This document shows, piece by piece, positions 17,597-50,998 of a DNA stretch of 64,000 nt. The notes under the pieces were generated by a model. The model was not told the DNA's origin and ran no database searches. It saw only the letters and a program-made list of their open reading frames with translations. A program made the translations under genes and the position numbers. Source of the stretch: Callorhinchus milii (Eukaryota). Each line of letters starts with the position of its first letter. Position 1 is the first letter of the stretch. The stretch covers positions 1 to 64,000 of the forward strand of contig NW_024704778.1 in assembly GCF_018977255.1 (NCBI RefSeq). The letters run 5' to 3'.

Positions 17597-20500
17597 GTTC
17601 CATACGCCCGGTCTTTCCCCTGGAAACAGAGAAATGTTATCCGCAACAACAGAAAAAGGGTCCGATTGCGCCTGTGTCGCTGCCGTTAGCTTTTCGAACT
17701 CACTTTTCTTCAATATTCATCTCCCACTTCCAGTTCTCTCATATTCCTTAATGCTTTTACTATTGTTTGACAGTCCAGTGCCTTGGGATGTCTTGCCGAC
17801 CTGAAAGGCACTATATAAATGTAAATTTGTATTGTACTTTACTCAAGATACTAATCCAGTTCTCTTTCTGAATGCGCCTATTATAATTAAGCCTCAAATG
17901 CCAATTATTGTAATGAATTCGAACACTTAATGAACCCCCTGAGTGAAGAAATTACTTCTAACTTCTCACTTAATTTCTCTGCTAATAAACCCTGCTACAA
18001 TAACAGGCTTTAAACCGAGGTCCCGGATTCCTGTTCGGGTGGATGTTAAAGATCCCAGGGCACCGTTCAGAAACTGTAGGGACTTTCTCCTTGTGTCCCG
18101 GCCAGCAATCCCCTGGATAAAATTGGTCACTCACTCCATGGCTGTATGCGGGGCATCGCTGTGCAAAACTGGCTGCCGCGCTTCGCCCGCGACATACAGT
18201 CAAGCCCGCGTGTCCCGTGAAGCGCTTTGAGATGTCTCAATGGCACGATAAGGCGCTATATCAAATGCAGGTATTATTATTAATACCCAGTCAAGTTAAT
18301 CACCAAAACCACGAGGAATAAAGGTAGTATTTTATTTTCACGGAGGATTGTTAGGACATGAAATGCCCAACCCTGAATTGTGGTTGAGGGCATGTTTCCC
18401 AAGCCCGGTTAAGATCCATCTTGACTTTTAAGGGGGAATAGATAATATGGGGGGGATTATAAAAGTGCGTGGGTGGGGAGAGAAGGAGAATTGGACTAAA
18501 TGCATAGCTGTTTCAGTGAACCATCCCAGCGTGATAGGCCGAATGGCCTCCTCCTGTGTTGTAAATTCCTATGGTTTGCTCAGCTAGTCAACAGAAACAA
18601 TTTACATTTTCCGGAGAAGATATTTCATCCTCCTGGGGAAATCCCATTCTACCTGAAGGAAAACCCAAGTAGGAAACAGAGCGTAAGAAAGGACAAACAT
18701 CACTATTACAGGGCAACTCGGAGAACTTATTGCGAAATGAAGTCAAGACATAAGGAAGCTAATGAGAAATGAAAACAAGAAGGGATAGGAGGGAAAAAAA
18801 ATGTGGCACGGCGGATTGTGCGATTAATTCATTTGGAGTCCTGTAGCTCAGTGGTTAGAGCACTCGCCTCGGAAGTGAGAGGACCTGGTTTCGATTCCCG
18901 GGTTGGGCCAGTTTCCTTACTCCACGCACACGCCTCTGGTTACCTAGCAGAAAGTAGGAACCCGGTTGTTAGCCGACTGGTGGATCGCTTTTCCGGGCGT
19001 AATAATCCCTTCAAAAAAAAATAATAATTTGGTCGCTCAATCCATGACTGTGAAACAATTGGCTGCCACGTTTCACCCACAAAATACACAGTCACTACAC
19101 TTTACAGTATATCCTGCGAAGCGCTTTGAGACGCCTCAAAGACATAATAAGGCGCTGTATCAAATGCAAGTTATTATTATTATTATTAATTAATTATTAT
19201 TATTATGATGAGCTTCATTTCACTACTTGGTTTCACCCAAGTGAGTCTTCCCAGTTGACAAAAAGAAGCTTTTTTCCACAATAAAACGCGGCTGAAAGGA
19301 CTTCTTGTTGCTCAGGACCCATCTTGAAGGCTGGAGTGTGGAACTCACTTGCCATAGAGGTCAGTCATATGAAATATTACTAGAAGGTAGGAAACAGGTG
19401 AATATTCCTTTATTTATAATCTCTCAAATGATTCTTTTCCCAGAGCAGAGAGTACTCTAAGAGCAAAGCCTAACCCAGAGCTTGATTCTCAGAACAAGCC
19501 CCAGTCATCGCTTTAAATGAGAATGCAGAGATTTGGCTTTTCTTCTTCTATTATTGTGAGTGAATCAGAGATTCCTGCTTCTGTTCAATTAGATTCACGC
19601 TCCAGCGCATTTAGATTAGCAGCTTCTTTACATTTAGATAAAAGGCTGCACCTCGTTCTATCGGGGAAAGGGGAGTGGGGGATGGGGGGAGTAATGAAGC
19701 GAGGCAAATCAGAGATATTAAATTTCAGGCACAATGCCTCACAAAAAAAAAGAGCATTTAATGATTCATCTGAAGAACAAGGCTTGCTGTGTGATTATTT
19801 GCATACCCTCATCCTGTGGAGTCCTGTAGCTCAGTCCTAAGAGAACTCGCCTCGCAAGCGAGAGACCTGGGTTTGATTCCCGGCGGGGCGAAACGTTGGG
19901 CAAGTTTACTTACTTACTCCACATGCCTCTGTTTACCTAGCAGTCAACATGAACCCGGTTGTTAGTCGATGGCCTCAGCCTCTCGCCCCACTCTGGAACT
20001 CCACCCCACGTGCCTTCGCTCTGCTTCCTCCCTCCTCCTTCAAGGCGTCTCAAGACCCTCCTCTTTGACTGTGCCTTCGCTCCCCTCCACTCTCTCCCTC
20101 TCCTCCCTCCCTCCCTCCCCTCCCCTGCCTTCCCCCAGCTCGGGCCCGACCCAACTGCACCCTTGGGACGTCCTCCCGATGAAAGGCGCTCTATAAATGT
20201 GTTTGTTGTTGTTGTTGTTGATTGGCGGATCGCTTTTCCTGGGATAATAATTCCTTCCAAAAAAAATGGGTCACTCACTCTACGGCTGTTTGTGCAACTC
20301 TGCAGTGCGTAAATTGGCGGCCGCCTTTTGTGCACAAAAACATAAAGTCAGTTCACTTTACGGTATATTCTGCGAAGTGCTTTGAGACGTCTCGAAGACG
20401 TGATAAGGCGCGATATCAAACGCGAGGATTATTATTATTATTATTTACAAAAATTGGTACGTGCAGACGAGCTGCGGGGTTCATGATCAAATGTGATTTC

Positions 20501-20630
20501 AAAATGTAATATCTGGTTAAGACTCCAGCAGTTAACCCCGACGGACACTCTGGGCTCCCCCCCAAGCCTTGGCTCTTGCCAACCTGTGCCTAATACTCTC
20601 TGGAATTAGGTAAACAGGACGCGTCCCTCC

Positions 20631-20668
<38 letters not shown>

Positions 20669-21516
20669 GCATTCCATTCCGACAATTTATCTCTGGGATT
20701 TTCATGGGTAGTTGGAATGCAGGGAATTCTCAGCACCTGGTTGGCTTTTTTGCTGCCAAACAGGTAACGTGACAGGAGTGGGACCGAATTCTACCCGAGA
20801 GTGAAGCATCTCTCGGACAACAACAACAACAAGATTACATTTGTACACGTCGGGAAGACTTTCCCAAGGCGCTGGAACGTCTGAGAACATTTCTAACATC
20901 TCTAACCACTATGCTGCAAGACTGACAATGTCTGAGAACACAGAGCAAATAAGATAAGGGCTCTTATTAGCAGAGGACTGTGGATTATGTTCGGCCTCAT
21001 TCAGTGTGGCACAGAAGTGCAACTTAAAGAGGGGAGAGATGAAAAGCTGCACTTTTATAATGTCTTCTTGACCAAAAACATCTCAAAGCAATTTACTGTC
21101 AGGCCTCGTCTCTCTCTCTACCTCATGTATTTTTAATTTGATCTGTTAAGCTGCTTGCATTCCGGCAATTGTCCAATATTGCCTCTGTAATATTTATGCA
21201 AACACGATTTGAGAATTTTAACAAGCCGCTGAACATACACCAGCTCACTTTAAGCATTCGTATCCATATGTAAAATTAATTCTTATTATTAATGTATGTA
21301 GAATGACATACGGAAGCATAGTAACAGTGAGCAATCAGGCACCAATACAGAAGCCCTCATAGGTAAAGTAGTTGTTTTCAATAATAACAATAATAATGCT
21401 TGCATATTATTATTTTTTAATTTATTTTTGAAGGGATTATTACCCCCAGAAAAGTGATCCACCAATCGACTAACAACCGGGTTCCTACTTACTGCTAGGT
21501 AAACATGTGTGTTATG

Positions 21517-21554
<38 letters not shown>

Positions 21555-24500
21555 AGTAAGAAAACCTGCCCAACAGGTCGCCCTGCCTGCGAACCAAACT
21601 CAGGTCCTCTCGCTTGCGAGGGGCGAGTGCTCTAACCACTACGCTACAAGACTCCAGTATCGCAATGGATGCATCCAGCAATTACACCGTAAGGGAAGCT
21701 CATACGCAATAGTACGTTCATGCACAAGGCATTTCTGAGAAAGTGGGTGCAACGCACGATATAATAATCAAAAGCTGAGAGCTAATTTGGGAGTATGAAG
21801 CACCAGAAATTCTCAAAATACTTTCAGTCACTTGAAACCTTGCCCAGCCGTCACCACCACTTTAGGCCAAGATTAATGAAGGGACAAAGAACTCATTGTG
21901 ATTTTTAAAAAAATGTTAAATCACCTTTCAAGAACATTAAAGCTTCAGTGATCATACACATCTGGTTAATCTTCAACAATTAATAGCAAGTCAGCATAGG
22001 GAGCCCTTTATCAAACATTTTAGTTAGGAAATTAGAGAGAAAAACACCAGAAGGGAACCCAATACAGAACAATCAATCACCCGCCACACGTGCGGTTGAG
22101 ACACATGGAAGAAAAACCCAAACAATGCTGAGAATGAAAATGTGACGGTCAACGTGATGGCCATCACCAGCAATGGAAACATAGAACCAGGAGGAGGCCA
22201 TTCAGCCCCTTGAGCTTGTTCCGCCATTCTATAAGATCACGGCTGATCAGTACCTCAACTCCAATTACCGGCCCTACAGAGAGCAGTCAGGCACCAACAC
22301 AAATAATACAAAAGCCCATATAAGAACTGTAGTTGTTTTCAATAATAATAACCCTTCCATTTGATATAGCACCTTATCAGGTCTAGAGCATGTTATTAAA
22401 GCATATTAGAGTGATATTATTTCACATGTGGAATTTCCACTGCTGTCGATGTCCCTGTCCACAGCCTCGTGAAAATGGATGATCTCAAAGCCACTCATTT
22501 GAACATCTACCTGAACAAGCTTCATCGACTTAACTGAACTTTTAAAGGAAAAGGGGTTTGAGACACCAAGAGAAATACAGCGGGATTTACTGTTACAAGG
22601 ATTAGGAATGAAGAGACAGCTGCACTGAATGAGCTAAAACCAGCTCCGGCTCAATAAGTCAAAGGGCCTCCTTCAATTCTGTAATTCCTATGATTCGATC
22701 GACCCAGTTTCCTAAGCAGGGTGCGTCCCTCCAAGGAGAGAACGCTCATTCATTCCAGAATTCCTATTTTCTGCAAGATGAACGGAGGCGTGTGCGTGTG
22801 GAGTAAGGAAACTTGCCCAACGTTTCGCCCTGCCCAGGAATCAAACCCGGGTCCTCTCGCTTGCGAGGCGAGTGGTCTAACCACTACACTACAGGACTCC
22901 ATGATTGCTACTCATATAGCATTTATATGGCGTCTTTCGAGTAAAATAATTGTCCGTAAGTGTTTTACAAATTAAAATTGATGAATAACTTGTGATCTCA
23001 ACAACTACAATGGATTGAAATTGGGAGGACAGAACCATGGACAGGGCAGGAGTAATGAAAATCTTTTTATAAAACCTAACAGCACCTCCAGCAGACTGTC
23101 AGTAGTACTTCAACTAAATGATAATATAATAGCAATCCTTGCATCCTTGAGTCGTCTCAAAGCACTTCACAGGATACTCTGTAAAGTGGAGTGATTGTAT
23201 ATTTTGTGGGTGAAACACAGCAGAAAATTGGGCACAGCGACATGCCAGACGTGGATTGAGCGACTACATTTTTTAAAAAGGGATTATTACTCCCGGAAAG
23301 AGATCTGCCAATCAACTAACAACTGGGTTCCCTGATTACTGCTCGGTAAACAGAGGCGTGCGGAGTAAGGAAACTTGCTTAAGGTTTCGCCCCGCCTGGG
23401 AATCAAACCCCGATCCTCTCGCTTGCGAGGCGAGTGCTCTAACCAATACACTACGGGACTCGACAATGTAAAACGCATTTTTCTCACATTGTGATCAGGA
23501 TTTACATTTGCGGATGTTTGAAATCCTACGCCCTACGAGCCGTTCTAAGACGTTTAAAAGACTGCAACGACAATGTAAAAGTGTACAAGGAAGAGCGGGG
23601 AATTAGGATTAGAGAATTTAGCTGCAGTGGACGAGCCAGCTCTACTTAGGCTCAATGGGCAAACAGTCTCCTCTGCACCGTTATCTGTTCTGCTATAAAC
23701 CTTTGTGACAATTTTTGAAACTCCATCCCACAGTCCCTTCACCTCACTCCCTCCCTTTCCTCCTTCAAGGCCCTCCTCTTTGCTCGTGCTTTCAGTCACT
23801 CTCCCACCCTCCCTGCCCTCCAAACCTCCTGACCCACCTACAAGCTCGGATCCAAATACCTGACAGTCCAGCACCTTTGGACGTCCTCCTGACGAGAAAG
23901 GCGCTGTATAAATGTCATGTGTTTCTGTTGCTGTTATTTAATACTGTGCAGAAATACCACAAATTCACTTTGGATAGTAAATCACAATAAGTCACTGTTG
24001 AAGGTCAGAGTGTTTTGTGAATGGCAATGCAGGTTGTATCTCCGGTCTGATCTGAGGTAAGTAATCTCAACCAGGTTAACAGTACTGGTGGGGCAATTAG
24101 GCTCAGGACTAATGAGGTTAACGTTATTTGCAAAATACAGCCCCCGATAGTTCACAAGCAAATAGACAAAATCTCTTCTCCCCGCTCTGACCTATAATCT
24201 TCCTGATAAATAATTAATTATGCCATTATCTGGTGCACAATCTAATTAACAAACACATGAAAAATTCATTTGTACCAGCGCATGGCAAGAGAGAAAAGAC
24301 GAGATTGAATAGAGATTTGTTTTAGCCATCCTGTATTTTGCTCTAAAAAAAAGTATTCAGTGGAACATTTCTTAGTGTTAAGTCAAGATTCCCAGCACCT
24401 GTCAATCCACAAATACAGAAACGGGCCACAATATTGCTCACAAAATCAACATTATATATATATACACACACACATTCACAATGTACATATCATTCTCCAA

Positions 24501-24889
24501 ACATCACAGCCTTTATGAAACACTCTTGCCACATTTCTATTTGTTATCTGGTCGACATTTAAAAAAACATTCCAGAGAGTTGTTACGGTCTGGAACGCAC
24601 TGCCTGGAAACAGATTCAATAACGACTTTCAAAGGGAATTAGATAAGTACTTGAAAAGGAAAAACTTACGGGGATAGGTGGAAAGAAAGAGCGGGGGAGT
24701 GGGACTGATTGGGTAGCTCTTCCAAAGAGCCGCGTACAGGCACGATGGCTTGAATGGCCTCCTTCGGTGCTGTAAGATTCTATGGATTCTATGAGGGTAA
24801 TGTGAAGGACTGTGTATCTCAGTGGTACATAGAGTGGTTTGTTGAATGAGGGAAAGTTACTACAGATGTAGTTTTGCCACCGTACTGAC

Positions 24890-25006
24890 CTGCGTTGACA
24901 ATGGCATCAATTTCCAGTTTGGTGATGTCCCCCTGAAAGAGCGAGACCTTCCCATTCAGAATATCGTCCTTCTTGTACTTGGACTCTGGGTTTTTAAGCT
25001 TTTCCA
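24890..25006 (-). CDS. MACROD1: MACROD1 exon, duplicate copy in segment B'
   Basis: Reverse complement of the exon at 39665-39781; probably an assembly duplicate. Confidence 0.6.
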
Positions 25007-27580
25007 CTGGGAAACAAAATGGGAGCAAGTTAAAGAGAGGGGGAGACAACCACATAAATTGTGACTGGGCTTTCAACCACTTTTTCAGCAATGATTATGG
25101 CTATAAATGTCATGTTCACAGATTACCAACCTCCTATATCTGGCACTGAAGCTTGGCAGTGTGTCCTGGCAGACCATCTAATTATTGGATTGGGATATCA
25201 TATTTTCAAGGATCGTCAACAATCAAAATCCCAACCGTCTTAATTAGAAATTTGGACTCAAAATCGTTGTGCCTGTTAATTGAGACAGATTTCACCAATT
25301 ATAATAATAATAATCCTTGTATTTGATATAGGGCCTTATTGCGACGTCTAAAAGCGCTTCACGGAATCTCCCACAGAGATTAATTTGGATAGCTCTTTTA
25401 AAGAGCCGGCATGGACACAATGGGCTGAAGTGTCCTCCTCCTGTGCTGTCTAATTCTATGATTCTAATATGCTGTAAAGTGTAGTGACTGTATATTTTGC
25501 GTAGAAAAGCAGCAGTCAATTATTGTTATCAATTATTATCACCTCGTAAAATAGCAAATCAGATTTGAAAGATGCAGCAAATGGAATATGAAATGCCCTA
25601 AGCAATTTTGTCGATGGTATATTAATTTATAAGTGAAATGCTTCCTGCTGTGCAAACATTGATTATTAGAAAGCGATACAAATAATTCTACAAGTTTAAG
25701 AGGAAACTGCTCTTCTTCTCTGTTTCGTTAAGTGCAGTTTAATACAATTACAAATCACTTTGCAGGCATTTATGTGAAACCCTCTCTGCCAAGAACAAAA
25801 ATCCACATCATAATGAATTTGTAAGTTTTAAAAGGCGGTTGTCCAATCTGAATTTAATCATTGGTAATTTAACAAAATTACTAATTGCTTCCCTAATAGT
25901 TAAACGAACCATGTTACTTTCTAGTATTGTTTATCCTACATGTTGAATGCTCTTTCTCTCCGCTTTCCTCCCACGCTTGTGAACTGAGGTGTCAAAAGGA
26001 GAGCGAAGTAGAGGCACTCTCAACACAGAAGCGAATCTTGCAGAATGCAGATTTGATAGTAACAATAGTCCTTGTGTTTGACATAGCGCCTTATCACGTC
26101 TCCGAGACCTCTCAAAGCGCATCACAGAATACACTGTAAAGTGGAGTGACTGTATCTTTTGTGGACAAAACGCAGCAGCTAATTGCACACAGTAGTGTAC
26201 CACAAAATGTCGTGGATTGAGTGACCAAACTATTGTTATTATTATTTTTTTGAAGGCATTATTACCCCCGGAAAAGTGATCCGCTAATCGACTAGCAAGC
26301 GGGTCCCTACTTACTGTTAGGTAAAAGACGCATGTATGTGGAGTAAGAAAACTTGCCTAAACTTTAAATCTGCCTAAGGTTCCAGCAGAGGGCTTGAACC
26401 CAGAGCCTTCCAGAAACGAGAGTGAGCCAAGCTGTCACAAAACTGTAATGATTAGATGCCATTAGACCCGGGCTATAAAATTAACACGTGTAAATCTATT
26501 TTCAATATAAATGGAAATGTACTCTTCCAGGCACAAGGCAATGCACATTAAAACCAGAGCAATATAAACGCTCAGTACATATTCATTACCTCGTTATTAC
26601 ACACAGCGTCCTCTTCTCACTAACTCATTTTTGAAATATTGCACCGCAAATGTCAGAACCACGAAGGAGGCGAAATAAAATCACTGAAAATATTATCAGG
26701 AAGCAGCATCTCATAGCTGGTTTTGGATTGACATTGATTTATAATAAATAATTGTAATCCTTGCGTTTGATACAGCTCCTTATTACGTCGTAGAGACATC
26801 TCAAAGCACCTCACAGAATATACTGTATCGTGCAGTGTGTAATTTGTGGGCGAAACACGCCAGCCAATTGCACACAGCAGTGTCCCACAAACAGTCGTGG
26901 ATTGAGTGACCAAATCATTATTAATTTTATTTTATTTATTTTTTGGAGGGATCATTACTTTATATGATTTTTTATATTAATTAGTACTTAATATTATTTT
27001 TTTGTGGGCGAAATACAGCAGTCAATTGTGCATAGCAGTATACCACAAACAGTTATGGATCGAGTGATCAAACTTTATCCCTCTTGGAGGGATTCTTACT
27101 TGATTTTTTAAAATATTATTAACAATAGTTATACTTTACACTATTTTAAAATAATTAATGATTCCTTTGTACTACATTTTATATCGTTAATTATTGCTCT
27201 ATATATTATGTTATGTTATTAATTATTACTTGATATTGTTTTGCTATATTAATACAAAAACGAGAAAAGCCAACATAGCAACGATCATTGTGGTCGCGTT
27301 GCTAAGGAAGCAGCAACCAAAAAGGGATTGGTGAAACCAAATGCTAATCAAACAAAACACAGAGCCTTTTCCTGTCATGTGAAAAGCACTTACAGAAAAA
27401 GGAAGCGACTGCTGGGGAGTCTGTGTGTGCAACATCAGGTAATTAAACACAAGCTGTGTATACTTATGGGATTTGTTTTTTGTTTAAAGGCGTATAAGAA
27501 CTTGTAAGTTTGGGACCCGTTTTTATCGGATGGTTTTATTTTCAGGCTAGGAAAATAGTCTGGCAGCAAGATAAACATTG

Positions 27581-28147
27581 ATGGAAGACTTGGAGCCTGC
27601 CTCTGCCTTTGACAAGGATCCATTCGAGCTAACGGCAGAAGATGTCTACGATATATCTTATGTCATTGGCCGCGAGTTAATGAAAGTCAGCAGCCCCGTG
27701 GGCTGCCCTGGAGTCTCCGAGCTGCAGTATAAGATCATCCGCGTTTTGGAAATGTTCGAGTCCCTGGTGAACAAGCACAATTTGACGGTGGAGGAGTTGA
27801 AAATGGAGCAAGCAAACCTGAAGGCTGAGACGGAGAGGCTTCACAGAGAACTGCAGAAGGCAAGCAGCGAGACACGGCAACCAGAGGATAAAGCTTCGGT
27901 GGATCTCGCAGACCCAAATCGCCCACGGTTCACGTTAGGGGAGCTCAGGGAGGTGTTGCAAGAACGCAATGAGCTGAAGGCCAAATTACTTGTTGTTCAA
28001 GAAGAGCTGCAGTATTACAAGAATAGCTTAGTCTCTTCCAAGGAAGCCAGTGTCATCGAGAGGGAAAATGCATCGACTGCAAGTCGGGGCAGTGAGCAAA
28101 CTATGATTAAGAAACTCTTTAATTTCAAACGGCGAAACAATCCATAA
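27581..28147 (+). CDS. RILPL2: RILP-like protein 2, intronless ORF (188 aa), copy in segment B'
   Basis: RH1 region PFELTAEDVYDISYVIGRELM...LQYKIIRVLEMFESLV, RH2 VDLADPNRPRFTLGELREVLQERNELKAKLLVVQEELQYYK, C-terminal IKKLF; ATG at 27581; AATAAA at 28314-28319. Confidence 0.85.
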   Translation: MEDLEPASAFDKDPFELTAEDVYDISYVIGRELMKVSSPVGCPGVSELQYKIIRVLEMFESLVNKHNLTVEELKMEQANLKAETERLHRELQKASSETRQPEDKASVDLADPNRPRFTLGELREVLQERNELKAKLLVVQEELQYYKNSLVSSKEASVIERENASTASRGSEQTMIKKLFNFKRRNNP

Positions 28148-28386
28148 AACGCGCAGATAAGACTCTTACAAAGCTGCAAAACCTTTCCCGGGACATTAAT
28201 TAATATGCTCGACGGACCTTAACAAGGCTTTTACTCCTTCTTACTTTTATACAAGAAATGATTTCTGACCAAAAATAACTTTTTTTTTGAAAATTCTACT
28301 TCTCAGAAACAGAAATAAAAGAACTAATCCAAACTTCTTCGCACTTTTCATTAACCGGAAGGTTTCCTCGTGACAATACCAGAAGA

Positions 28387-28411
28387 NNNNNNNNNNNNNN
28401 NNNNNNNNNNN
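28387..28411. other. Assembly gap (25 N)
   Basis: Run of N exactly between duplicate segments B' and A'. Confidence 1.
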
Positions 28412-29785: not shown

Positions 29786-29820
<35 letters not shown>

Positions 29821-30196
29821 GGAGTTTCTAGGATGGGAGAGAGAGGCACAAGAGAAATGAGGATTTTCTGATATTCCCACCCGTTGCTGCCCAAGTCCCT
29901 TTAGAAAGCCCACATCACTTGAAACAGAACGCACAAGGTAGCAGGGACGGAGTATATACTGGAGACTTTCTACTGGGTTAAGTTCTTGACCCGAACAAGA
30001 ACGCAGAGTGGGAAGGGACGAGTGGGAAGGAAGGAGCGGGATGGGTGAAACTGACCCACTATCAAATGAACAGGAGCCTTATACATTTCTCTTTGCCTGG
30101 GGAGAACCCCATTGAGGAAAATAAAAGCCATAGGAATAGAATTCAATAAATTGCACAGTGTTTAGCCCATCGAGGCGATCGTCTCATTTCGATTTG
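28412..30196 (-). repeat. Segment A' (inverted copy of 15819-17596)
   Basis: Direct sequence match in reverse complement. Confidence 0.95.
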
Positions 30197-31108: not shown

Positions 31109-34100
31109 TTATATAAAGATGTTCTGACATTTCTCCTTGCCGAAGTTCAGTTTGATCTCCTCCTGGTAGATCGGTGGTAAGTTGGTGCAGGTCATGGCTT
31201 CTGTCACGGCGTCCAGGTGCTCCTGAATGACCCTGTTGTCCCAGTTGGAGTAGGCGGCGGTGGGGGCTTTGCCCAGCGATGGGGGGGTGTAGGTGGCTGT
31301 CGGGTAGTAACCATCTTGCGATCTGTGCTGCCAGTCGTCTTGCTGCCTGTGGATCTTCATGTGAGCATTCCGACTCTTGATCTTGTAGAACATCCTGTGT
31401 TGTGGGGGTGGCGGGGGAGGTTGAGGAAGGAAGAAAGTAATCAAGATTCTCTCTCTCTCTTGTCTACAAATCCCTTCACGCCCTGGCACAGCCCTCCATC
31501 TCCGACTTGCTTACTCCCCACTACCTTCGCTTGTCCCTCGCCCCCCCTCCGCTCCACTACGCCCCAAAGCTTCGGAACTCTTGCCCTCAATCCCTCCACT
31601 TTCCTCCCTCCTTCCCATCCCATTAGATCACGACTGAAGCCCTCCCCCCTTGGACCGTGCTCACGGTCACCCTCTCACTCCCTGCCCCCGGCTCAGCCCA
31701 TGCCGAGTGACGTGAGGGATACTTACTTTCCGCACTGTTTGCAGGGGAAGTTGCCAATAACCGTGGGGCACGGGCTCTGTCGTTCTCTGTGGATGGGCTC
31801 CAGCGACTGTGACCGTAACGGAGGCTATTCCAGAAGCAAGAGAAGGTGGGGAGGAAGGGAAAGAATGTCACTTCACCAAACTGATCGATGCCAACGGCCT
31901 CTCACTCGTTTTCAGATCCCTTCATGTCCCGCCACTTCCCTCCTCCCTCCCTCCCCACTTTCAAATCCCACCTAAAGACCTTCCTTTTTGATCGTGCTTA
32001 CGGTCACCTCCCCACTCCCTCCCTTTCCTCCCCCCGCGCCCCCTCGGCTTGGTATCCGACTCCGCCACTGTCAAGCACTCCGGGAAACACTACCCCACGT
32101 GAAGGGCGCTGTGTAAAATGCTGCCTTGCCCAGCCTGACCTCATTGACGCTGTCTTGTCGGAACACTTGGCCACAATCCTCCTCCGCGTCCAAGGGCCTG
32201 AGTCTTGGCTTCTTGTTGAACTTGAGGATCTTCTTGAAGCTGTAATAGTACTCCACGCACTCCGCGATTGGCTTGGACTTTACCTGGAACAGGCGGAGCG
32301 GGGGGGTGGGGGGGGTAAAGGACATAAGAACTTGCTCGGCAAACGAAGCCCAAGGTCCACCCAGTTCGCCTTCCCACCATCCTGGCAGTCGTTTAACATG
32401 TGTCCCCAAACTCTACGCTGTATCTCTGCCCCCGGATATTATTTTCCAGTAGAAATCGATCTTGTTTGTTTTTGGAACTTTTTCTGTCTCCCTCAGGAGC
32501 CATACATTTACCACTCGCTCACCGAATTAGTGCGTCTGCAGATTTTGTACTGAATTTTCTCCCCCTTCGATCAACCCCAGGCCACGTCCTCTAGTTCTAC
32601 TGTTCAGCACGAAGACATTTACCGTTACTCCACAACCCACACACGCCTCTGTTTACCCAACAGTAAGCAGGAACCCGGTTGTTAGTCGATTGGCGGATCG
32701 CTTTTCTGGAGGTAAAAATCCCTTCCCCCCCCCACCAAAAAAAATAATAAATTGGTCACTCAATCCACGACTGTATTGGGCGCAATTGGCTGCCATGTTC
32801 GGGCCACAAAATATTCAGTCAATTCACTTCACAGTATGTCGTGTGAAGCGCTTTGAGAACGTCTCGAGGACACGATAAGGCGTGTTATCAAATGCGAGGA
32901 GTATTTCCACCGAATGCCTCGCCCCGTTACCATTTTCTGGATCGTGTAGAAGTCCTTCTTGTGCAGGCCGAAAGCTTTGTTGAAGGCTTTGCGTTCGTTG
33001 AAGGTCCAGGAGCAACTTCCTGACAAGAGCGGGAAAACAAGAACGAGGAAGAGAAAGTGGGTGAATGTCTCACGAACGGGTTCCCGTGGTCTCAGCTTTC
33101 AGACCAGGGCCTTAAAATTGCCGATGGTTTTGGACAGCTCCTGGACGTGGAAGCCGGATCACTCGGCTGCGTTTGCGAGTCAAGCTTGACTCCGGCTTGG
33201 ATTCCACGGAACATCCTTGCTCACCTACCTGTGTAATGGTAACTGGCCAAAGCCTCTGATCGGGCGGGGACCTTGGTGTTCAGTAGCAGTCTCTCCAACA
33301 CGGCCTGTGGGAATAGGAATCCGGTTACCGTCGTTCTAAAGGGAATTTTTACCTCGCCGGGTTAAATTGGTCGCTGACTTTCATGGCCATTTGTGGCACG
33401 TTGCTCTGTGTAATCGTTCGCCCACGAGAAATACACAGTCACTCCACTTTACCATCTATTCTGTGAAGCGCTTTGAGACGTCCAGAAGAAGTGATAAGGC
33501 GCTGTATCAAATGCAAGGAGTGTTAATCTCTTACGAGCCACGAGTTTCATGATCTTGAACACCTCTATCAGGTCCCCCTCTCGACACTGCGGAATCATCT
33601 CAACACTGATCTCAGTTCTACCCCCCGACCTGTCCTCCAGTCTTTGAAAAGCTTTGAGACTTCTGGAAGACGTGATAAGGCGCTATTTCAAATAGATCAA
33701 GGATTATTATTATTATTATTGTCCAAAAGTGGAAGCAGCCTATCAGGAAGCAATAATCCCTTCAAAAATAAATAATAATAATAATAATCTGGTCACTCAA
33801 CCCACGACTGTTTGTGGGGCGTCGCCGGGCGCGATTGGCTGCCACGTTCGCCCCCAAAACCCACAGTCACCACACTACAGTGTATCCTGGGAGGCGCTTT
33901 GAGGCGTCTCGAAGACACGATAAGGCACTGTGTCCAACGGAAGGATTATTTTTTTACTGTTGAAAAGGTGGGACTGGACCGTTTCAAGTAGCCGCCTCTC
34001 ACCATAATGTCAGCCCCCTCCTCGAAGAGACAGTGAAGAGCAAACTCTCGGTTGGTTCCTCCTCCTGGCAGCACACTGGAACACGCCATGTTCAACATGT

Positions 34101-35946
34101 CCTCCACTGTTAGGGTAACACAGAGTTGATGTTAATCTCAAAGGAGACTGCGCTGAAATGTTGTGACTACATCAAACTATGTATAGTTATTGGATTCCCG
34201 GTTGTCCTCTCAAGCAGGAGAGATAATCTTACCCTTCTGTTGCGTGTCTGGGTTGTCTATTAATCCTTTCCAGGGTCTCCAGACGAGGTCTGCAGTGTGC
34301 TTGTCCTGATCCGCCAAGGACGCCTCCATTAGGTCAGGCAACGTGGCCTGGAACTGATGGCCAACGTTTATGCAGCTGGAGAGATGAACACAAGTCTTAC
34401 AGCAGCGACTGGAGTCTCCAAATCATGCCCAGCCCTCAGCTACCTTGTCTCACCCACATTCCCACATCATCAACCTGATCGCTCCCTCTGCTCCCTCCAC
34501 GTCCCCCTGCCCTGTCCATCCCGGCCCACCACGGGCGATCGAGCCTTCAGCCTCGCTGCCCCCACCCTTCGGAAGTCCGTCCCACATTCCCTTCGCCTCT
34601 CTCGCTCGCCTGCCTCCTTCAAGGCACATCTCGAGACTCTCCTCTTCGACCGTGCCTTCGGTCACCCTCTTACCCCCGACCCTCCCGATCCCATCTCTTG
34701 AGGTGTCTGAATTTCTGATACTTACGGAGTCCAGCTTTCCACCTGCGTTGAGTTCTCCTGGTGAATTAAATCCAGTCCATCTGTGAAAGAGAACAGAGTG
34801 AATAACACACAGCCACATCGATAAGAACTGTGTAGATTTATTTACACAGGAAGTTCAATTCCTGGGTGGGTCGGGGCAACACCTTATGCAAGTTTCCTCA
34901 CTCAACACACACACACACGTACACACACACACACGCCTCTGTTTACCCAGCGGTAAGTAGGAACCCACTCGATGGTCGATTGGTGGATCGCTTTCCCGGG
35001 GGGTAATAATCCCTCCAAAAAAAAATAATAATCGTTTGGTTACTCAGTCCACCACTGCTTGTGGGACATTGACTTGTGCGATCGGCTGTCGCATTTCGCC
35101 CACAAAATATACAGTCACTATGCTTTACAGTCCGTCCTGTGAAGCGCTCTGAGACGTGATAAGGCGCTGTATCAAATGCAAGGATTATTGTTGTTATAAG
35201 TGACCCTCGGCTTACTGAATAAACAGCGGGTCCTTACAGTCACACATACACAGTGACTCTCACCCTGTAGATAAACAACAACAACAAAACAACATTTATA
35301 GAGCGCTTTTCAGGTCGGGAGGACGTCCCAAGGAGTTGCAGTCGGGTCGGGGCCCGAGCGTGGGGAAGGGCCGGGGGTAGGGGTGAGGGAAGGGAGAGAG
35401 GTGGGAGGGAGACCGAAGGCACAGTCAAAGAGGAGGGTCTTGAGACCGGCCTTGAAGGAGGTGAGGGAGGAAGCGAGGCCAAGGGACCGTGGGGTGGAGT
35501 TCCAGAGTGTGGGGGCAGAGAGGCTGAAAGCTCGGCCACCGATGGGGGGGGGTCGAGTGGGAGACGGAGCGGGCAGGTTGGTTGGTAGGGAGTCAGCGGG
35601 TCAGAGAGGGTAGGAGGGGGCAAGGCCATGGATGGGCTTGAAAGCGAGGACGAGGATCTTGAATCTTGAACAGTCACTACACACACACACACACACAGCG
35701 ACTGCCCCTCACCCTCTGATACCTACTGTATTGGTTGCACGCGAAGGGAGAGCCCACCGACTCGGAGCTGTGCTCAGCGAGGTTGGTGAAGAGGCCGGAG
35801 CCCTTGCGGGCCGGGTTCAGCATCGGCAGCGGGGTGTAGTGGGGGGCGCCCGCCGAGGGGCTGGCGGGCGCCCGCTTCCCCTCCGCGTGGAGCCGGCTGG
35901 GGTACACGCTGGCACAGTGGTAGGGCGGGGGGGCTGCCCCGCAGCT
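31109..35946 (-). CDS. ELM2-SANT-C2H2 transcriptional regulator of the TRERF1/ZNF541/MIDEAS family, 3' nine exons (404 aa, 5' end absent)
   Basis: Exons 35946-35727, 34780-34726, 34375-34233, 34106-34003, 33304-33229, 33019-32931, 32283-32140, 31824-31727 and 31394-31109 are all GT-AG and in frame (1215 nt). Motifs: [17 protein letters not shown]; ELM2 [16 protein letters not shown]...LVWRPW...[20 protein letters not shown]; [52 protein letters not shown]; zinc finger [23 protein letters not shown]. Confidence 0.92.
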
Positions 35947-36521
35947 CTGCAACAGAAGGTTAATGATGATGATAATGATAAATAATAATCCTTGCCTTTG
36001 AAACCCGGCGCCGTGCCGCGACTCGAAGCGACGTGAAAGGCGCCTCGTGAACACCGCTTCGTGTGGTGGAGTGACCGTGTTTCGCCCGCGAGCCGATTGC
36101 GCGCAGCGGCGTTCCCCGCAAACAGCCGCGGATTGAGCCGGGTGGGGGGGGTGGTGTGGGAGGGCGACCGAAGGCGGGGTCGGTCAAAGAGGAGGGTCTC
36201 GAGACGAGACTCGAGGGAGGGAGTTCCAAAAGTGGGGGGGGGATGGGGGCAGAGAGGCTGAATTATCAGTCAACACACTCGCTCTTCTGGTATTGTCACG
36301 AGGAAACCTTCCGGTTAATGAAAAGTGCGAAGAAGTTTGGATTAGTTCTTTTATTTCTGTTTCTGAGAAGTAGAATTTTCAAAAAAAAAGTTATTTTTGG
36401 TCAGAAATCATTTCTTGTATAAAAGTAAGAAGGAGTAAAAGCCTTGTTAAGGTCCGTCGAGCATATTAATTAATGTCCCGGGAAAGGTTTTGCAGCTTTG
36501 TAAGAGTCTTATCTGCGCGTT

Positions 36522-37088
36522 TTATGGATTGTTTCGCCGTTTGAAATTAAAGAGTTTCTTAATCATAGTTTGCTCACTGCCCCGACTTGCAGTCGATGCA
36601 TTTTCCCTCTCGATGACACTGGCTTCCTTGGAAGAGACTAAGCTATTCTTGTAATACTGCAGCTCTTCTTGAACAACAAGTAATTTGGCCTTCAGCTCAT
36701 TGCGTTCTTGCAACACCTCCCTGAGCTCCCCTAACGTGAACCGTGGGCGATTTGGGTCTGCGAGATCCACCGAAGCTTTATCCTCTGGTTGCCGTGTCTC
36801 GCTGCTTGCCTTCTGCAGTTCTCTGTGAAGCCTCTCCGTCTCAGCCTTCAGGTTTGCTTGCTCCATTTTCAACTCCTCCACCGTCAAATTGTGCTTGTTC
36901 ACCAGGGACTCGAACATTTCCAAAACGCGGATGATCTTATACTGCAGCTCGGAGACTCCAGGGCAGCCCACGGGGCTGCTGACTTTCATTAACTCGCGGC
37001 CAATGACATAAGATATATCGTAGACATCTTCTGCCGTTAGCTCGAATGGATCCTTGTCAAAGGCAGAGGCAGGCTCCAAGTCTTCCAT
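36522..37088 (-). CDS. RILPL2: RILP-like protein 2, intronless ORF (188 aa), nested antisense in a MACROD1 intron
   Basis: Same protein as 27581-28147; uninterrupted RH1+RH2 ORF; splice acceptor (ttttattttcag) at 37125-37124, 35 nt before the ATG. Confidence 0.88.
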   Translation of the reverse strand: MEDLEPASAFDKDPFELTAEDVYDISYVIGRELMKVSSPVGCPGVSELQYKIIRVLEMFESLVNKHNLTVEELKMEQANLKAETERLHRELQKASSETRQPEDKASVDLADPNRPRFTLGELREVLQERNELKAKLLVVQEELQYYKNSLVSSKEASVIERENASTASRGSEQTMIKKLFNFKRRNNP

Positions 37089-39664
37089 CAATGTTTATCT
37101 TGCTGCCAGACTATTTTCCTAGCCTGAAAATAAAACCATCCGATAAAAACGGGTCCCAAACTTACAAGTTCTTATACGCCTTTAAACCAAAAAACAAATC
37201 CCATAAGTATACACAGCTTGTGTTTAATTACCTGATGTTGCACACACAGACTCCCCAGCAGTCGCTTCCTTTTTCTGTAAGTGCTTTTCACATGACAGGA
37301 AAAGGCTCTGTGTTTTGTTTGATTAGCATTTGGTTTCACCAATCCCTTTTTGGTTGCTGCTTCCTTAGCAACGCGACCACAATGATCGTTGCTATGTTGG
37401 CTTTTCTCTTTTTTGTATTAATATAGCAAAACAATATCAAGTAATAATTAATAATATAACATAATATATAGAGAAATAATTAATGATATAAAATGTAGTA
37501 CAAAGGAATCATTAATTATTTTAAAATAGTGTAAAGTATAACTATTGTTAATAATATTTTAAAAAATCAAGTAAGAATCCCTCCAAGAGGGATAAAGTTT
37601 GATCACTCGATCCATAACTGTTTGTGGTATACTGCTATGCACAATTGACTGCTGTATTTCGCCCACAAAAAAATAATATTAAGTACTAATTAATATAAAA
37701 AATCATATAAAGTAATGATCCCTCCAAAAAATAAATAAAATACAAATTAATAATGATTTGGTCACTCAATCCACGACTGTTTGTGGGACACTGCTGTGTG
37801 CAATTGGCTGGCGTGTTTCGCCCACAAATTACACACTGCACGATACAGTATATTCTGTGAGGTGCTTTGAGATGTCTCTACGACGTAATAAGGAGCTGTA
37901 TCAAACGCAAGGATTACAATTATTTATTATAAATCAATGTCAATCCAAAACCAGCTATGAGATGCTGCTTCCTGATAATATTTTCAGTGATTTTATTTCG
38001 CCTCCTTCGTGGTTCTGACATTTGCGGTGCAATATTTCAAAAATGAGTTAGTGAGAAGAGGACGCTGTGTGTAATAACGAGGTAATGAATATGTACTGAG
38101 CGTTTATATTGCTCTGGTTTTAATGTGCATTGCCTTGTGCCTGGAAGAGTACATTTCCATTTATATTGAAAATAGATTTACACGTGTTAATTTTATAGCC
38201 CGGGTCTAATGGCATCTAATCATTACAGTTTTGTGACAGCTTGGCTCACTCTCGTTTCTGGAAGGCTCTGGGTTCAAGCCCTCTGCTGGAACCTTAGGCA
38301 GATTTAAAGTTTAGGCAAGTTTTCTTACTCCACATACATGCGTCTTTTACCTAACAGTAAGTAGGGACCCGCTTGCTAGTCGATTAGCGGATCACTTTTC
38401 CGGGGGTAATAATGCCTTCAAAAAAATAATAATAACAATAGTTTGGTCACTCAATCCACGACATTTTGTGGTACACTACTGTGTGCAATTAGCTGCTGCG
38501 TTTTGTCCACAAAAGATACAGTCACTCCACTTTACAGTGTATTCTGTGATGCGCTTTGAGAGGTCTCGGAGACGTGATAAGGCGCTATGTCAAACACAAG
38601 GACTATTGTTACTATCAAATCTGCATTCTGCAAGATTCGCTTCTGTGTTGAGAGTGCCTCTACTTCGCTCTCCTTTTGACACCTCAGTTCACAAGCGTGG
38701 GAGGAAAGCGGAGAGAAAGAGCATTCAACATGTAGGATAAACAATACTAGAAAGTAACATGGTTCGTTTAACTATTAGGGAAGCAATTAGTAATTTTGTT
38801 AAATTACCAATGATTAAATTCAGATTGGACAACCGCCTTTTAAAACTTACAAATTCATTATGATGTGGATTTTTGTTCTTGGCAGAGAGGGTTTCACATA
38901 AATGCCTGCAAAGTGATTTGTAATTGTATTAAACTGCACTTAACGAAACAGAGAAGAAGAGCAGTTTCCTCTTAAACTTGTAGAATTATTTGTATCGCTT
39001 TCTAATAATCAATGTTTGCACAGCAGGAAGCATTTCACTTATAAATTAATATACCATCGACAAAATTGCTTAGGGCATTTCATATTCCATTTGCTGCATC
39101 TTTCAAATCTGATTTGCTATTTTACGAGGTGATAATAATTGATAACAATAATTGACTGCTGCTTTTCTACGCAAAATATACAGTCACTACACTTTACAGC
39201 ATATTAGAATCATAGAATTAGACAGCACAGGAGGAGGACACTTCAGCCCATTGTGTCCATGCCGGCTCTTTAAAAGAGCTATCCAAATTAATCTCTGTGG
39301 GAGATTCCGTGAAGCGCTTTTAGACGTCGCAATAAGGCCCTATATCAAATACAAGGATTATTATTATTATAATTGGTGAAATCTGTCTCAATTAACAGGC
39401 ACAACGATTTTGAGTCCAAATTTCTAATTAAGACGGTTGGGATTTTGATTGTTGACGATCCTTGAAAATATGATATCCCAATCCAATAATTAGATGGTCT
39501 GCCAGGACACACTGCCAAGCTTCAGTGCCAGATATAGGAGGTTGGTAATCTGTGAACATGACATTTATAGCCATAATCATTGCTGAAAAAGTGGTTGAAA
39601 GCCCAGTCACAATTTATGTGGTTGTCTCCCCCTCTCTTTAACTTGCTCCCATTTTGTTTCCCAG

Positions 39665-39781
39665 TGGAAAAGCTTAAAAACCCAGAGTCCAAGTACAAGA
39701 AGGACGATATTCTGAATGGGAAGGTCTCGCTCTTTCAGGGGGACATCACCAAACTGGAAATTGATGCCATTGTCAACGCAG
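39665..39781 (+). CDS. MACROD1: MACROD1 (mono-ADP-ribosylhydrolase) internal exon beginning the macro domain
   Basis: tttcccag|TG GAA AAG...AAC GCA G|gtcagt, 117 nt, encoding (V)EKLKNPESKYKKDDILNGKVSLFQGDITKLEIDAIVNA. FLRT1 lies antisense in the following intron, the known MACROD1/FLRT1 arrangement (MACROD2 hosts FLRT3). Confidence 0.88.
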
Positions 39782-39877
39782 GTCAGTACGGTGGCAAAAC
39801 TACATCTGTAGTAACTTTCCCTCATTCAACAAACCACTCTATGTACCACTGAGATACACAGTCCTTCACATTACCCT

Positions 39878-40100
39878 CATAGAATCCATAGAATCTTACA
39901 GCACCGAAGGAGGCCATTCAAGCCATCGTGCCTGTACGCGGCTCTTTGGAAGAGCTACCCAATCAGTCCCACTCCCCCGCTCTTTCTTTCCACCTATCCC
40001 CGTAAGTTTTTCCTTTTCAAGTACTTATCTAATTCCCTTTGAAAGTCGTTATTGAATCTGTTTCCAGGCAGTGCGTTCCAGACCGTAACAACTCTCTGGA
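39878..40100 (-). mobile_element. CR1-type LINE 3' fragment
   Basis: CATAGAATCCATAGAATCTTACAGCACCGAAGGAGGCCATTC... terminal repeat and 3' UTR typical of CR1-like elements; mirrored at ~24570-24795. Confidence 0.7.
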
Positions 40101-43100: not shown

Positions 43101-43117
43101 GGGCAGGTTTTCTTACT

Positions 43118-43155
<38 letters not shown>

Positions 43156-44005
43156 CATAACACACATGTTTACCTAGCAGTAAGTAGGAACCCGGTTGTT
43201 AGTCGATTGGTGGATCACTTTTCTGGGGGTAATAATCCCTTCAAAAATAAATTAAAAAATAATAATATGCAAGCATTATTATTGTTATTATTGAAAACAA
43301 CTACTTTACCTATGAGGGCTTCTGTATTGGTGCCTGATTGCTCACTGTTACTATGCTTCCGTATGTCATTCTACATACATTAATAATAAGAATTAATTTT
43401 ACATATGGATACGAATGCTTAAAGTGAGCTGGTGTATGTTCAGCGGCTTGTTAAAATTCTCAAATCGTGTTTGCATAAATATTACAGAGGCAATATTGGA
43501 CAATTGCCGGAATGCAAGCAGCTTAACAGATCAAATTAAAAATACATGAGGTAGAGAGAGAGAGACGAGGCCTGACAGTAAATTGCTTTGAGATGTTTTT
43601 GGTCAAGAAGACATTATAAAAGTGCAGCTTTTCATCTCTCCCCTCTTTAAGTTGCACTTCTGTGCCACACTGAATGAGGCCGAACATAATCCACAGTCCT
43701 CTGCTAATAAGAGCCCTTATCTTATTTGCTCTGTGTTCTCAGACATTGTCAGTCTTGCAGCATAGTGGTTAGAGATGTTAGAAATGTTCTCAGACGTTCC
43801 AGCGCCTTGGGAAAGTCTTCCCGACGTGTACAAATGTAATCTTGTTGTTGTTGTTGTCCGAGAGATGCTTCACTCTCGGGTAGAATTCGGTCCCACTCCT
43901 GTCACGTTACCTGTTTGGCAGCAAAAAAGCCAACCAGGTGCTGAGAATTCCCTGCATTCCAACTACCCATGAAAATCCCAGAGATAAATTGTCGGAATGG
44001 AATGC

Positions 44006-44043
<38 letters not shown>

Positions 44044-49045: not shown

Positions 49046-50998
49046 TCACGTGTAAGAATATTCCGCGTCTGGTATCCCACCGTCTCTGTAACCGCGGTTA
49101 GTACTGAGTGCCGTACTGTGGGGGCTCTTGTAAAGATGGGTCCCGTTCGATGGGAATATGGTGTGTATTATGTAGTCCTCCTTTGGCCGCTGTTGCTGAT
49201 TGTTGAGGGGAATCATCTGAAAGCCACCCCCTCGGATCTCTAAAATGGAGTTATCTTTCTTTGTCCCTGCTTCCGCGTAATCGTCCTTCTTCCTGCAACC
49301 TCTGCTGTACGCCTGGTCCTGGGAAAACACGCTCCTGTTGTTGTTGACGTAGCAGCAGAAGGCGGCGAGGGCGACGATGAGGAAGACCAAGGCTGCTGCG
49401 CCCCCTATTATACCGGCCAGCGGAAGACTAGCTTGGTCCGATTCCTCCTGCTCCCTGTTTAACGTTGTGGTGGGACTGTACAGATCGCCCGTCTCGGCTT
49501 TCGTGCAGACTGGAGTCTCGTCGTGCGTGTAGATATTCGCGGTCTCCATCGTGACCAAACATATGATGTAGCTTGACTTGGGCTCAAGGGCTGTGAGCAG
49601 GTACTCATTCCTGTCTCCCTGTACCAGCGTTTCAGTGATGGAGCCCACCGAGGGGCTGTGGCCTAACCTCAACCAGCTGAGCCTGTAGGAGGTGACTGGT
49701 AGCTTGGTTCTCCATGTGATACGGATGCTGTCAGCGGTCAAGGGCACCACTTTGATCACCAACGACTTGGAGGTTGACCCCCCGCCCGGCAGCAGATTGT
49801 CTGCTCCCAAACCTGGAGGCTTGAAGTTCGGCTGCCTTGGTCTGTACGTGAACTGCAGTCCTTGAGTGGCCGACAATGTGTGCACGATTGGGGTCGTTTT
49901 CACCAACGCATCGCTGCCTTGCAAAGTGATTTTGAAACACTCGTCCATCTCTGCGTTGATGTCTTTGATGGCCATTCCTCGGACTTTATCTGGCCCTTGG
50001 CACATCAGCCCTCGCACGTTGACATGAAACGCAGTCGTTCTCATCCAGTCCCTAAGCCACATCATTCTGCAGCCACAGTGCCAGGGGTTATTCCGTAAGA
50101 AGAGCTGACTTAAGCTCTCCAGGTCATCAAAGACTCCTTTGGGCAAAGACGTGAGGTTATTGTTGGACATGTCCAAACGTTGGAGTTGTCGCATTTTTGC
50201 AAAGGCATTTGGCCGGATGTAGCTGATGAGGTTGTCTTGCAGGTGGAGCTTCTGCAGGTTCGAACCGGGCAGATTCGGCGGTGGGAAGACCAAAGAGTTC
50301 CTGACCAGCGAGAGCTCGCTCAGGTTCTGCAGTCGGCTAAAGGTCTCGTCGGCTATCCTTTGGTTGGCTAACAGGTTGCCATCCAGGATTAAGCGCCGCA
50401 GGTTCACCAAGCCCTTGAAGGCGTACTGGGGAATGGTGGCAATGCGGTTGTCATCCAGCCGCAACTCCTCCAGGGTCGTGGGGAGCTTGCTGGGGATGCT
50501 ACTGAGATGGTTCCTGGAGAGAAAGAGCAATCGGAGGTGTTTACTGTCGGCAAAAGCGTCTTCCTCAATGCTAACCGTGGAAACAGAGTTATCGTCCAGA
50601 TGCAACTTCTCCAACAGCGGAATCCTCGAGAGCGCATCTCTGGTGACAGCCCTGATGTTGTTGTCCTGGAGGTGAAGTTCTCTCAGAGATTTGGGCAGGT
50701 TGACGGGGAACTCATCCAACGTGTTTTGATACAGGTAGATCACCTCTATGCTCAGGAGGTGTTTCAGCTGCACGGGAATCCCGATGTTATTGATCCTGTT
50801 GTTCTGGAGGAAGAGCGTCGTGGAGTCCTCGGGGATCTTGGGGGGAATGGACATCAAGCCCCGGTCGTTGCAGTAGACAAACCCATTGTCACATCGACAC
50901 ATCGAGGGACAGCTGGCGAGGACGCTTGGCATCAGCAGCACTGGTATCACGGCCAGCAGCAGCAGGCTGCCTTCAGAACCCATGGTGTGCAACTGCAT
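49046..50998 (-). CDS. FLRT1: Leucine-rich repeat transmembrane protein FLRT1 (single coding exon, 650 aa)
   Basis: Signal peptide, [24 protein letters not shown], LRRs ([28 protein letters not shown]; [21 protein letters not shown]), LRRCT NPWHCGC, FN3, [16 protein letters not shown], tail [14 protein letters not shown]...[15 protein letters not shown]. Acceptor at ~51042; second in-frame ATG with a better Kozak context at 50983. Confidence 0.97.

What the first reader, a model, noticed from the sequence alone, without database searches (positions are those of the whole stretch)
36522..37088. Intact intronless RILPL2 nested antisense inside MACROD1
Seen: the complete RH1-RH2 ORF with no introns, stops or frameshifts, a poly(A) signal about 170 nt after the stop, and no residual poly(A) tract. 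Knowledge: RILPL2 is multi-exon in mammals and lies beside RILPL1, not in MACROD1; FLRT1 is the established nested gene of MACROD1. Inference: an old retrogene under selection, either an extra paralog or a replacement for the parental gene.
Basis: partly seen in the sequence, partly recalled or inferred. Interest (0 to 1): 0.7.

Follow-up and report, generated by a model that had tools for sequence, protein, structure and literature searches.

The report
Chimaera RILPL2 retrogene replaced its parent
In this chimaera the only RILPL2 gene found (a cell-transport adaptor) is an intact, spliced-and-transcribed copy without coding introns lying backwards just before a MACROD1 exon, while the gene's usual site is empty, so an ancient, likely RNA-derived copy shared with sharks and rays has likely replaced the original.

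Summary
Observation confirmed, with corrections. The 188-aa RH1-RH2 ORF is intact and lacks coding introns, but RNA contigs of two studies show a 108-nt 5'-UTR intron. An identical second ORF lies at 27581-28147 in a 9-kb inverted duplicate ending at an N gap, likely an assembly artefact. The genome holds no spliced RILPL2: the RILPL1-KMT5A interval is 3.1 kb, gap-free and without remnant. The gene groups with a clade of 23 cartilaginous-fish species; in three rays it shares the chromosome with MACROD1, in two with neighbouring accession numbers. A second, apparently spliced clade was found in only 3 of the 23. Reading: an orphan retrogene, inserted before chimaeras and sharks split, whose parent was likely lost several times. 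Nesting is inferred: MACROD1 RNA splices an upstream exon that is missing from the assembly. Phospho-Rab-binding residues are kept; the myosin-Va pocket Phe is Tyr in 22 of 23. dN/dS not computed. My paper searches found no report, but this scan noted the same gene before in three shark genomes. New member of a known kind.

The parts
36522..37088 (-). RILPL2 ORF, 188 aa, single coding exon (RH1 21-81, RH2 118-178)
36338..36521 (-). 3' UTR with AATAAA at 36350-36355; RNA contig end at 36338
37089..37123 (-). 35-nt 5'-UTR part of the coding exon, after the splice acceptor
37124..37231 (-). 108-nt GT-AG intron in the 5' UTR
   Evidence: joint 37122/37231, ends CT..AC (cut +1), in runs X7 and X10; sequence
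37232..37271 (-). non-coding first exon (minimum extent; contigs cannot show the start)
   Evidence: record 17
37359..37396 (.). two RFX X-box-like sites (37359-37372 minus; half-site 37388-37396 plus), about 90-125 nt upstream of the RNA contig end; consensus recalled, function untested
39665..39781 (+). MACROD1 internal coding exon (host gene), spliced on both sides in RNA contigs
49046..50998 (-). FLRT1 coding exon, in the next MACROD1 intron
27581..28147 (+). second, nucleotide-identical RILPL2 ORF in the inverted duplicate; likely assembly artefact
19193..28386 (.). inverted duplicate of 36283-45503 (99.3%), ends at the N gap; holds the mirror MACROD1 exon at 24890-25006
28387..28411 (.). 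25-N assembly gap, followed by 28412-30196, an inverted copy of 15819-17596 (99.5%)

Best explanation
The ORF is an intact, transcribed RILPL2 gene without coding introns and the only RILPL2 found in this genome; it likely arose by retroposition of a RILPL2 mRNA into a MACROD1 intron before chimaeras and sharks split, and likely replaced the spliced parent, whose usual site beside RILPL1 is empty here. Shown: intact ORF, spliced 5' UTR, empty parental interval, a clade of orthologues linked to MACROD1 in rays. Inferred: LINE-driven reverse transcription; position inside the MACROD1 intron; own promoter with RFX-like sites; at least three separate losses of the parent (chimaera line, rays, galeoid sharks; species tree recalled). 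Predicted function: a dimeric adaptor whose RH2 X-cap binds LRRK2-phosphorylated Rab8/Rab10 and whose RH1 recruits myosin V, acting in ciliary membrane traffic as RILPL2 does in mammals. The second copy in the window is likely the same locus assembled twice.
For: Intron loss: RILPL1 and RILP in G000 have a phase-2 intron after the RH2 'YK/YQ' codons, RILPL1 another in 'RRL|F'; isoform pairs of clade-B and coelacanth RILPL2 diverge at these same places; the window ORF reads through both. Parent absent: searches with the window protein and with a clade-B protein hit only the two window copies, RILPL1 (C8) and RILP (C10); C8 order is DDX55-TMED2-RILPL1-[3093 bp, no N]-KMT5A-SBNO1 with no RILPL2 remnant by tblastn or HMM read through stops. 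Age: ingroup tree puts the window with clade A (16 rows, SH-aLRT 96; 97 among 180 rows). MACROD1 and clade-A RILPL2 share contig length in Hemitrygon, Pristis and Hypanus, with neighbouring accessions in the first two, while RILPL1 is on another chromosome in all three. Expression: GT-AG joint in 2 of 2 RNA-like runs laid; ORF covered in 4 of 4. Constraint: N129, R130, R132, F133, T134, L135, E137, R139, K149, E157 of human RILPL2 are all kept.
Against: With RILPL1 as outgroup the best tree places the window protein basal to all RILPL2 and joins clade B with bony vertebrates (96/96); AU tests reject neither window+A (p 0.127) nor a chondrichthyan clade (p 0.143), so the date is unresolved upward. 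No poly(A) tail or target-site duplication remains. Exon structure and site of clade-A and clade-B genes in other species were not seen in DNA; they rest on accessions, contig lengths and isoform break points. Absence of clade B in 20 of 23 species rests on annotated proteins only. The assembly is incomplete here (a transcribed MACROD1 exon is missing), so a hidden parent cannot be excluded outright. The myosin-Va pocket Phe56 is Tyr50, so equivalence to the parent is not assured. dN/dS was not computed.
Confidence: 0.86

Rival explanations
1. The copy is older than jawed vertebrates' crown: retroposition happened in the gnathostome stem, and bony vertebrates lost the retrocopy while most cartilaginous fishes lost the parent (reciprocal loss).
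For: Clade B joins bony-vertebrate RILPL2 at 96/96 in the tree with outgroup; Phe at the myosin pocket is shared by B (3 of 3) and bony vertebrates (148 of 151, 3 unparsed).
Against: Outgroup branch is very long; a chondrichthyan clade is not rejected (p-AU 0.143); 4 columns unite window+A+B against bony vertebrates, 2 unite window+A against B+bony; none of 151 other listed proteins falls in A or B. This is a variant of the best explanation in date only.
Confidence: 0.3
2. DNA-level duplicate (whole-genome or segmental) that later lost its introns one by one, not a retrocopy.
For: Great age; no tail or target-site duplication; a 5'-UTR intron is present.
Against: All coding introns are gone at once; none of the parent's neighbours (RILPL1, KMT5A, SBNO1, TMED2) is seen beside it; it sits antisense within another gene; new 5' exons are common in retrogenes (PMC4772013, passages).
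Confidence: 0.07
3. The spliced parent still exists in this species but is missing from the assembly; the ORF is an extra paralog.
For: The assembly lacks a transcribed MACROD1 exon; three sharks keep both copies.
Against: The syntenic interval is continuous, 3093 bp, without N; no chimaera clade-B protein among the 120 listed of 706 hits to a clade-B query, nor among 26 unnamed proteins placed on the tree.
Confidence: 0.07
4. The inverted second copy is a real recent duplication, giving two active RILPL2 genes and a partial MACROD1 copy.
For: The copies differ by 7 substitutions and 5 small indels outside one repeat, and carry different repeat copies at 44470-44712.
Against: It ends at a 25-N gap flanked on both sides by inverted copies of nearby DNA; the far junction lies in a repeat; a DNA contig of run X1 leaves the window sequence at 36283, the base where the duplicate meets the gap; ORFs are identical. 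Contig depth gave no copy number.
Confidence: 0.2

Closest known systems
RILPL2 of mammals (PDB 4KP3 with myosin Va tail; 6RIR, 6SQ2, 7LWB with phospho-Rab8a)
   Same: RH1-RH2 layout, short length, X-cap and K149 residues, hydrophobic patch V31/S35/G39/L42 kept as V22/S26/G30/L33
   Different: No coding introns; lies at MACROD1, not between RILPL1 and KMT5A; Phe56 is Tyr50 throughout the clade; Q136 is Gly
Orphan retrogenes (Ciomborowska et al., PMC3548309, 25 human cases; Carelli et al., PMC4772013, 10 families; passages read)
   Same: Intact, expressed retrocopy with no spliced parent in the genome; new 5' exon
   Different: Cartilaginous-fish case; parent and copy apparently coexisted for a very long time and still do in 3 of 23 species, whereas PMC3548309 reports replacement mostly soon after retroposition; RILP is not named in that paper's main text
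FLRT genes nested antisense in MACROD introns (recalled; no paper found)
   Same: Single coding exon, antisense, inside MACROD1; FLRT1 is in this window
   Different: RILPL2 lies one intron further upstream and has a traceable spliced parent elsewhere

Membership tests
RILPL2 (RILP family) | N-terminal RH1 and C-terminal RH2 domain | tested here: met
   Pfam PF09744 and PF11461 over cut-off
RILPL2 (RILP family) | About 190-210 aa, lacks the long middle coiled coil of RILPL1/RILP, groups with RILPL2 | tested here: met
   188 aa; RILPL2 side of the tree 100/100; separate RILPL1 and RILP loci in G000
RILPL2 (RILP family) | Phospho-Rab contact residues R130, R132, F133, K149 | tested here: met
   R114, R116, F117, K133
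RILPL2 myosin-Va binding mode | Hydrophobic patch plus Phe56 inserted in the myosin tail pocket | tested here: inconclusive
   Patch kept; Phe56 is Tyr in 22 of 23 clade-A proteins, 1 unparsed; binding itself untested
Retrogene | Loss of ancestral coding introns | tested here: met
   Two intron sites seen in RILPL1 (one also in RILP) and matched by RILPL2 isoform break points are read through
Retrogene | Insertion away from the parental locus | tested here: met
   C37 at MACROD1 versus C8 RILPL1-KMT5A-SBNO1; bony-fish RILPL2 shares contigs with RILPL1 or is fused to SBNO1 in models
Retrogene | Poly(A) tail and target-site duplication (expected only in young copies) | tested here: inconclusive
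   Neither found; absence is expected at this age and does not decide origin
Retrogene | Intact frame and transcription | tested here: met
Retrogene | dN/dS well below 1 | not testable with these tools
   No orthologous coding DNA held; protein identity to clade A 0.72 in RH1, 0.71 in RH2, 0.38 in the linker, 0.30 in the tail
Orphan retrogene | No spliced parent in the genome | tested here: met
   assembly is incomplete elsewhere
Orphan retrogene | Carries out the parent's function and expression | not testable with these tools
   Needs rescue or binding assays and tissue RNA
Nested antisense gene | Host exons on both sides, opposite strand | tested here: inconclusive
   Downstream exon shown; RNA joins an upstream exon that is not in 35600-39900, the window or G000, so it must lie beyond the ORF if splicing is in cis

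The most novel reading that the evidence does not exclude
A slow, repeated gene hand-over: a RILPL2 retrocopy landed in MACROD1 at least 400 million years ago (date recalled), possibly before bony and cartilaginous fishes split, fixed a Phe-to-Tyr change at the myosin-Va pocket, kept the C-terminal motif that the parent has since let decay, and made the parent dispensable in at least three separate lineages, while bullhead, sevengill and sawsharks still carry both. Most cartilaginous fishes would then run LRRK2-Rab-dependent ciliary traffic on a retrogene with altered motor binding.
Probability: 0.35. Interest if true: 0.62.

Novelty: new member of a known kind. Interest (0 to 1): 0.45.

Why it matters
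Orphan retrogenes are few and mostly known from mammals. This chimaera copy dates the event to at least the root of living cartilaginous fishes, and species that keep both copies, or only the retrocopy, give a natural series for studying how a copy replaces its parent. It also shows that the 'RILPL2' annotated in most sharks and rays is not the positional orthologue of human RILPL2, and flags a probable mis-assembly around the start of MACROD1.

Tried and rejected
Search for MACROD1 exons 1-2 in C37:1-184000 by tblastn and HMM: nothing real; the one hit at 54275 (-) is a LINE tail by eye. Idea that the RILPL2 5' exon is borrowed from FLRT1 or the ELM2 gene: rejected, it lies 108 nt upstream. 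Gene conversion from RILPL1 in RH2: 70 of 102 nt, only 11 of 27 same-residue codons identical, no better than RILP (9 of 21). A conserved acceptor position shared with rays: not supported, ray isoforms diverge about 3 codons before the ATG. SNRNP35 as a control for the C8 interval: PF12220 gave one hit only (C31), uninformative. A strict regex for the C-terminal motif missed 98 of 151 bony-vertebrate proteins, so alignment identity was used instead. Copy number from contig depth: no unique control stretch was covered. No run was on record as RNA; RNA status rests on splice joints. No third contig holds the left end of the duplicate. No fold or complex was predicted.

Full report
Observation. 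The ORF at 36522-37088 (-) is open for 188 codons and carries RH1 and RH2. Its best match is a 99%-identical protein labelled RILP-like protein 2 of Callorhinchus milii, followed by shark and ray proteins at 57-67% (120 of 719 hits listed). AATAAA lies 167 nt after the stop; no tail or flanking direct repeat remains.

Transcript. No run was on record as RNA. Contigs of 4 of 4 RNA-like runs from three studies cover the ORF (the X10 contig from 36516, X6 down to 36338). Two runs of two studies show the joint 37122/37231 with ends CT..AC, a 108-nt GT-AG intron on the minus strand, and a first exon from 37232 to at least 37271; run X5 reads unspliced to 37186. So the gene is transcribed and only its coding part is intronless. 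Contigs say nothing on level or tissue. Two RFX-like sites lie 90-125 nt further up; the half-site pattern occurs 13 times in 304 kb, 4 of these being this pair in its two copies.

Host gene. The exon at 39665-39781 (+) matches ray proteins named MACROD1-like at 76%; later exons lie at C37:105930 and 121270, with FLRT1 antisense between. RNA contigs splice an upstream exon onto 39665. That exon is found neither in the window (3 mismatches) nor in G000 (1 mismatch), and homology searches of C37:1-184000 found no exon 1 or 2. DNA contigs of run X1 tile most of 36283-39900. RILPL2 therefore most likely lies in the intron before this exon, and the 5' end of MACROD1 is missing from the assembly. 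An ELM2-SANT gene at 31.1-35.9 kb (-) also lacks visible 5' exons, which fits a lost segment near 36.27 kb.

The duplicate. 19193-28386 mirrors 36283-45503 at 99.3% and stops at a 25-N gap; beyond the gap 28412-30196 mirrors 15819-17596. Outside one swapped repeat the arms differ by 7 substitutions and 5 small indels, and the far junction is in a repeat. The X1 contig departs from the window at 36283 with 22 unfitted letters. I read this as the same locus assembled twice (about 0.8); copy number was not measured.

The parent. Searches of G000 with the window protein and with a clade-B protein found only the two window copies plus spliced genes on C8 and C10 that are RILPL1 and, by weaker match, RILP. 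On C8 the order is DDX55, TMED2, RILPL1, KMT5A, SBNO1 (gene names other than RILPL1 and SBNO1 recognised from recalled motifs). In bony vertebrates RILPL2 lies here (recalled; RILPL1 and RILPL2 share contig lengths in sturgeon, gar and arowana, and a bichir model fuses RILPL2 with SBNO1). The interval is 3093 bp without N and shows no remnant by tblastn or by an HMM read through stops. RILPL1 and RILP have a phase-2 intron at the end of RH2, RILPL1 another before its last exon; isoform pairs of Heptranchias, Heterodontus and coelacanth RILPL2 diverge at these places. The window ORF reads through both.

Two clades in cartilaginous fishes. Clade A holds the window protein and proteins of 22 other species. 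Clade B was found in Heterodontus, Heptranchias and Pristiophorus only: after these, hits to a clade-B query fall from 79% to 62% (120 of 706 listed). In Hemitrygon MACROD1 is XP_072887323-327 and clade-A RILPL2 XP_072887328-329; in Pristis XP_051900932-933 and 935-936; in Hypanus both share a 39.8-Mb contig; RILPL1 is on another contig in all three. This is indirect but points to one insertion before chimaeras and elasmobranchs split. With RILPL1 as outgroup the window protein falls basal and B joins bony vertebrates, but AU tests reject neither window+A nor A+B; the upper date is open. On the recalled species tree, B missing from 20 of 23 species needs at least three losses; only the chimaera loss was checked in DNA here.

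Mechanism. In human RILPL2 the RH2 X-cap (R130, R132, F133) and K149 bind phospho-T72 Rab8a (PMC7139218, passages); all are kept. RH1 binds the myosin-Va tail by a hydrophobic patch and Phe56 (PMC6831827, passages); the patch is kept, Phe56 is Tyr in 22 of 23 clade-A proteins but Phe in 3 of 3 clade B and 148 of 151 others. The C-terminal motif is 0.49 identical between A and bony vertebrates but 0.18 between B and bony vertebrates, suggesting decay in the surviving parents, though gene models could be at fault. I infer a working phospho-Rab/myosin-V adaptor; binding is untested.

Known or new. It meets the tests for RILPL2, retrogene and orphan retrogene as defined in PMC3548309 and PMC4772013 (passages). 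Searches RILPL2+retrogene (1 unrelated listing), RILPL2+shark (0), retrogene+elephant shark (19; one listed), retrogene+cartilaginous fish+intronless (11; one listed), RILPL2+evolution+phylogen (17; 15 listed), FLRT1+MACROD1+nested (0) and RILPL2+RFX+cilia (3) showed no report in the listings. Two 2026 vertebrate retrocopy preprints do not name RILP in their main text; their supplements, which I did not see, could list it. Three unreviewed notes of this scan describe the same gene in shark genomes; I reached the orphan-retrogene reading before seeing them, and took the promoter lead from them.

Verdict. Real, ancient, expressed orphan retrogene; new member of a known kind; interest 0.45.

Noticed in passing
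window 31112-35946 (-): Multi-exon ELM2-SANT gene (TRERF1/ZNF541/MIDEAS type, family assignment recalled; ELM2 at 34255-34371, E 1.8e-8). Its first visible exon starts at a splice acceptor, so its 5' exons are missing, probably with MACROD1 exons 1-2.
   Followed up: partly
window 15819-30196 and 36283-45503: Two inverted duplicates flank a 25-N gap; the arms carry different repeat copies at the same place (44470-44712 versus about 19985-20202).
   Followed up: partly
window 8906-11418 (+): Exons of a glycosyltransferase family 43 gene (B3GAT3-like), Pfam PF03360.
   Followed up: no
G000:C8:8548878-8551970 (L027-L028): No SNRNP35-like ORF is evident between RILPL1 and KMT5A, where mammals have it (recalled); its place in this genome was not found.
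   Followed up: partly
G000:C10:6690305-6690466 (L004): The RILP-type gene reads RPCF where RILPL1/2 read RPRF, so it lacks the arginine that binds the Rab phosphate.
   Followed up: no
G000:C21:4820959-4821306 (L010, L039): A 119-codon stretch matches MACROD1 residues 182-300 at 61% in one open frame, across several exon borders; possibly a MACROD retrocopy.
   Followed up: no
window 36957: All five runs laid read A where both window copies have T (third codon position).
   Followed up: no
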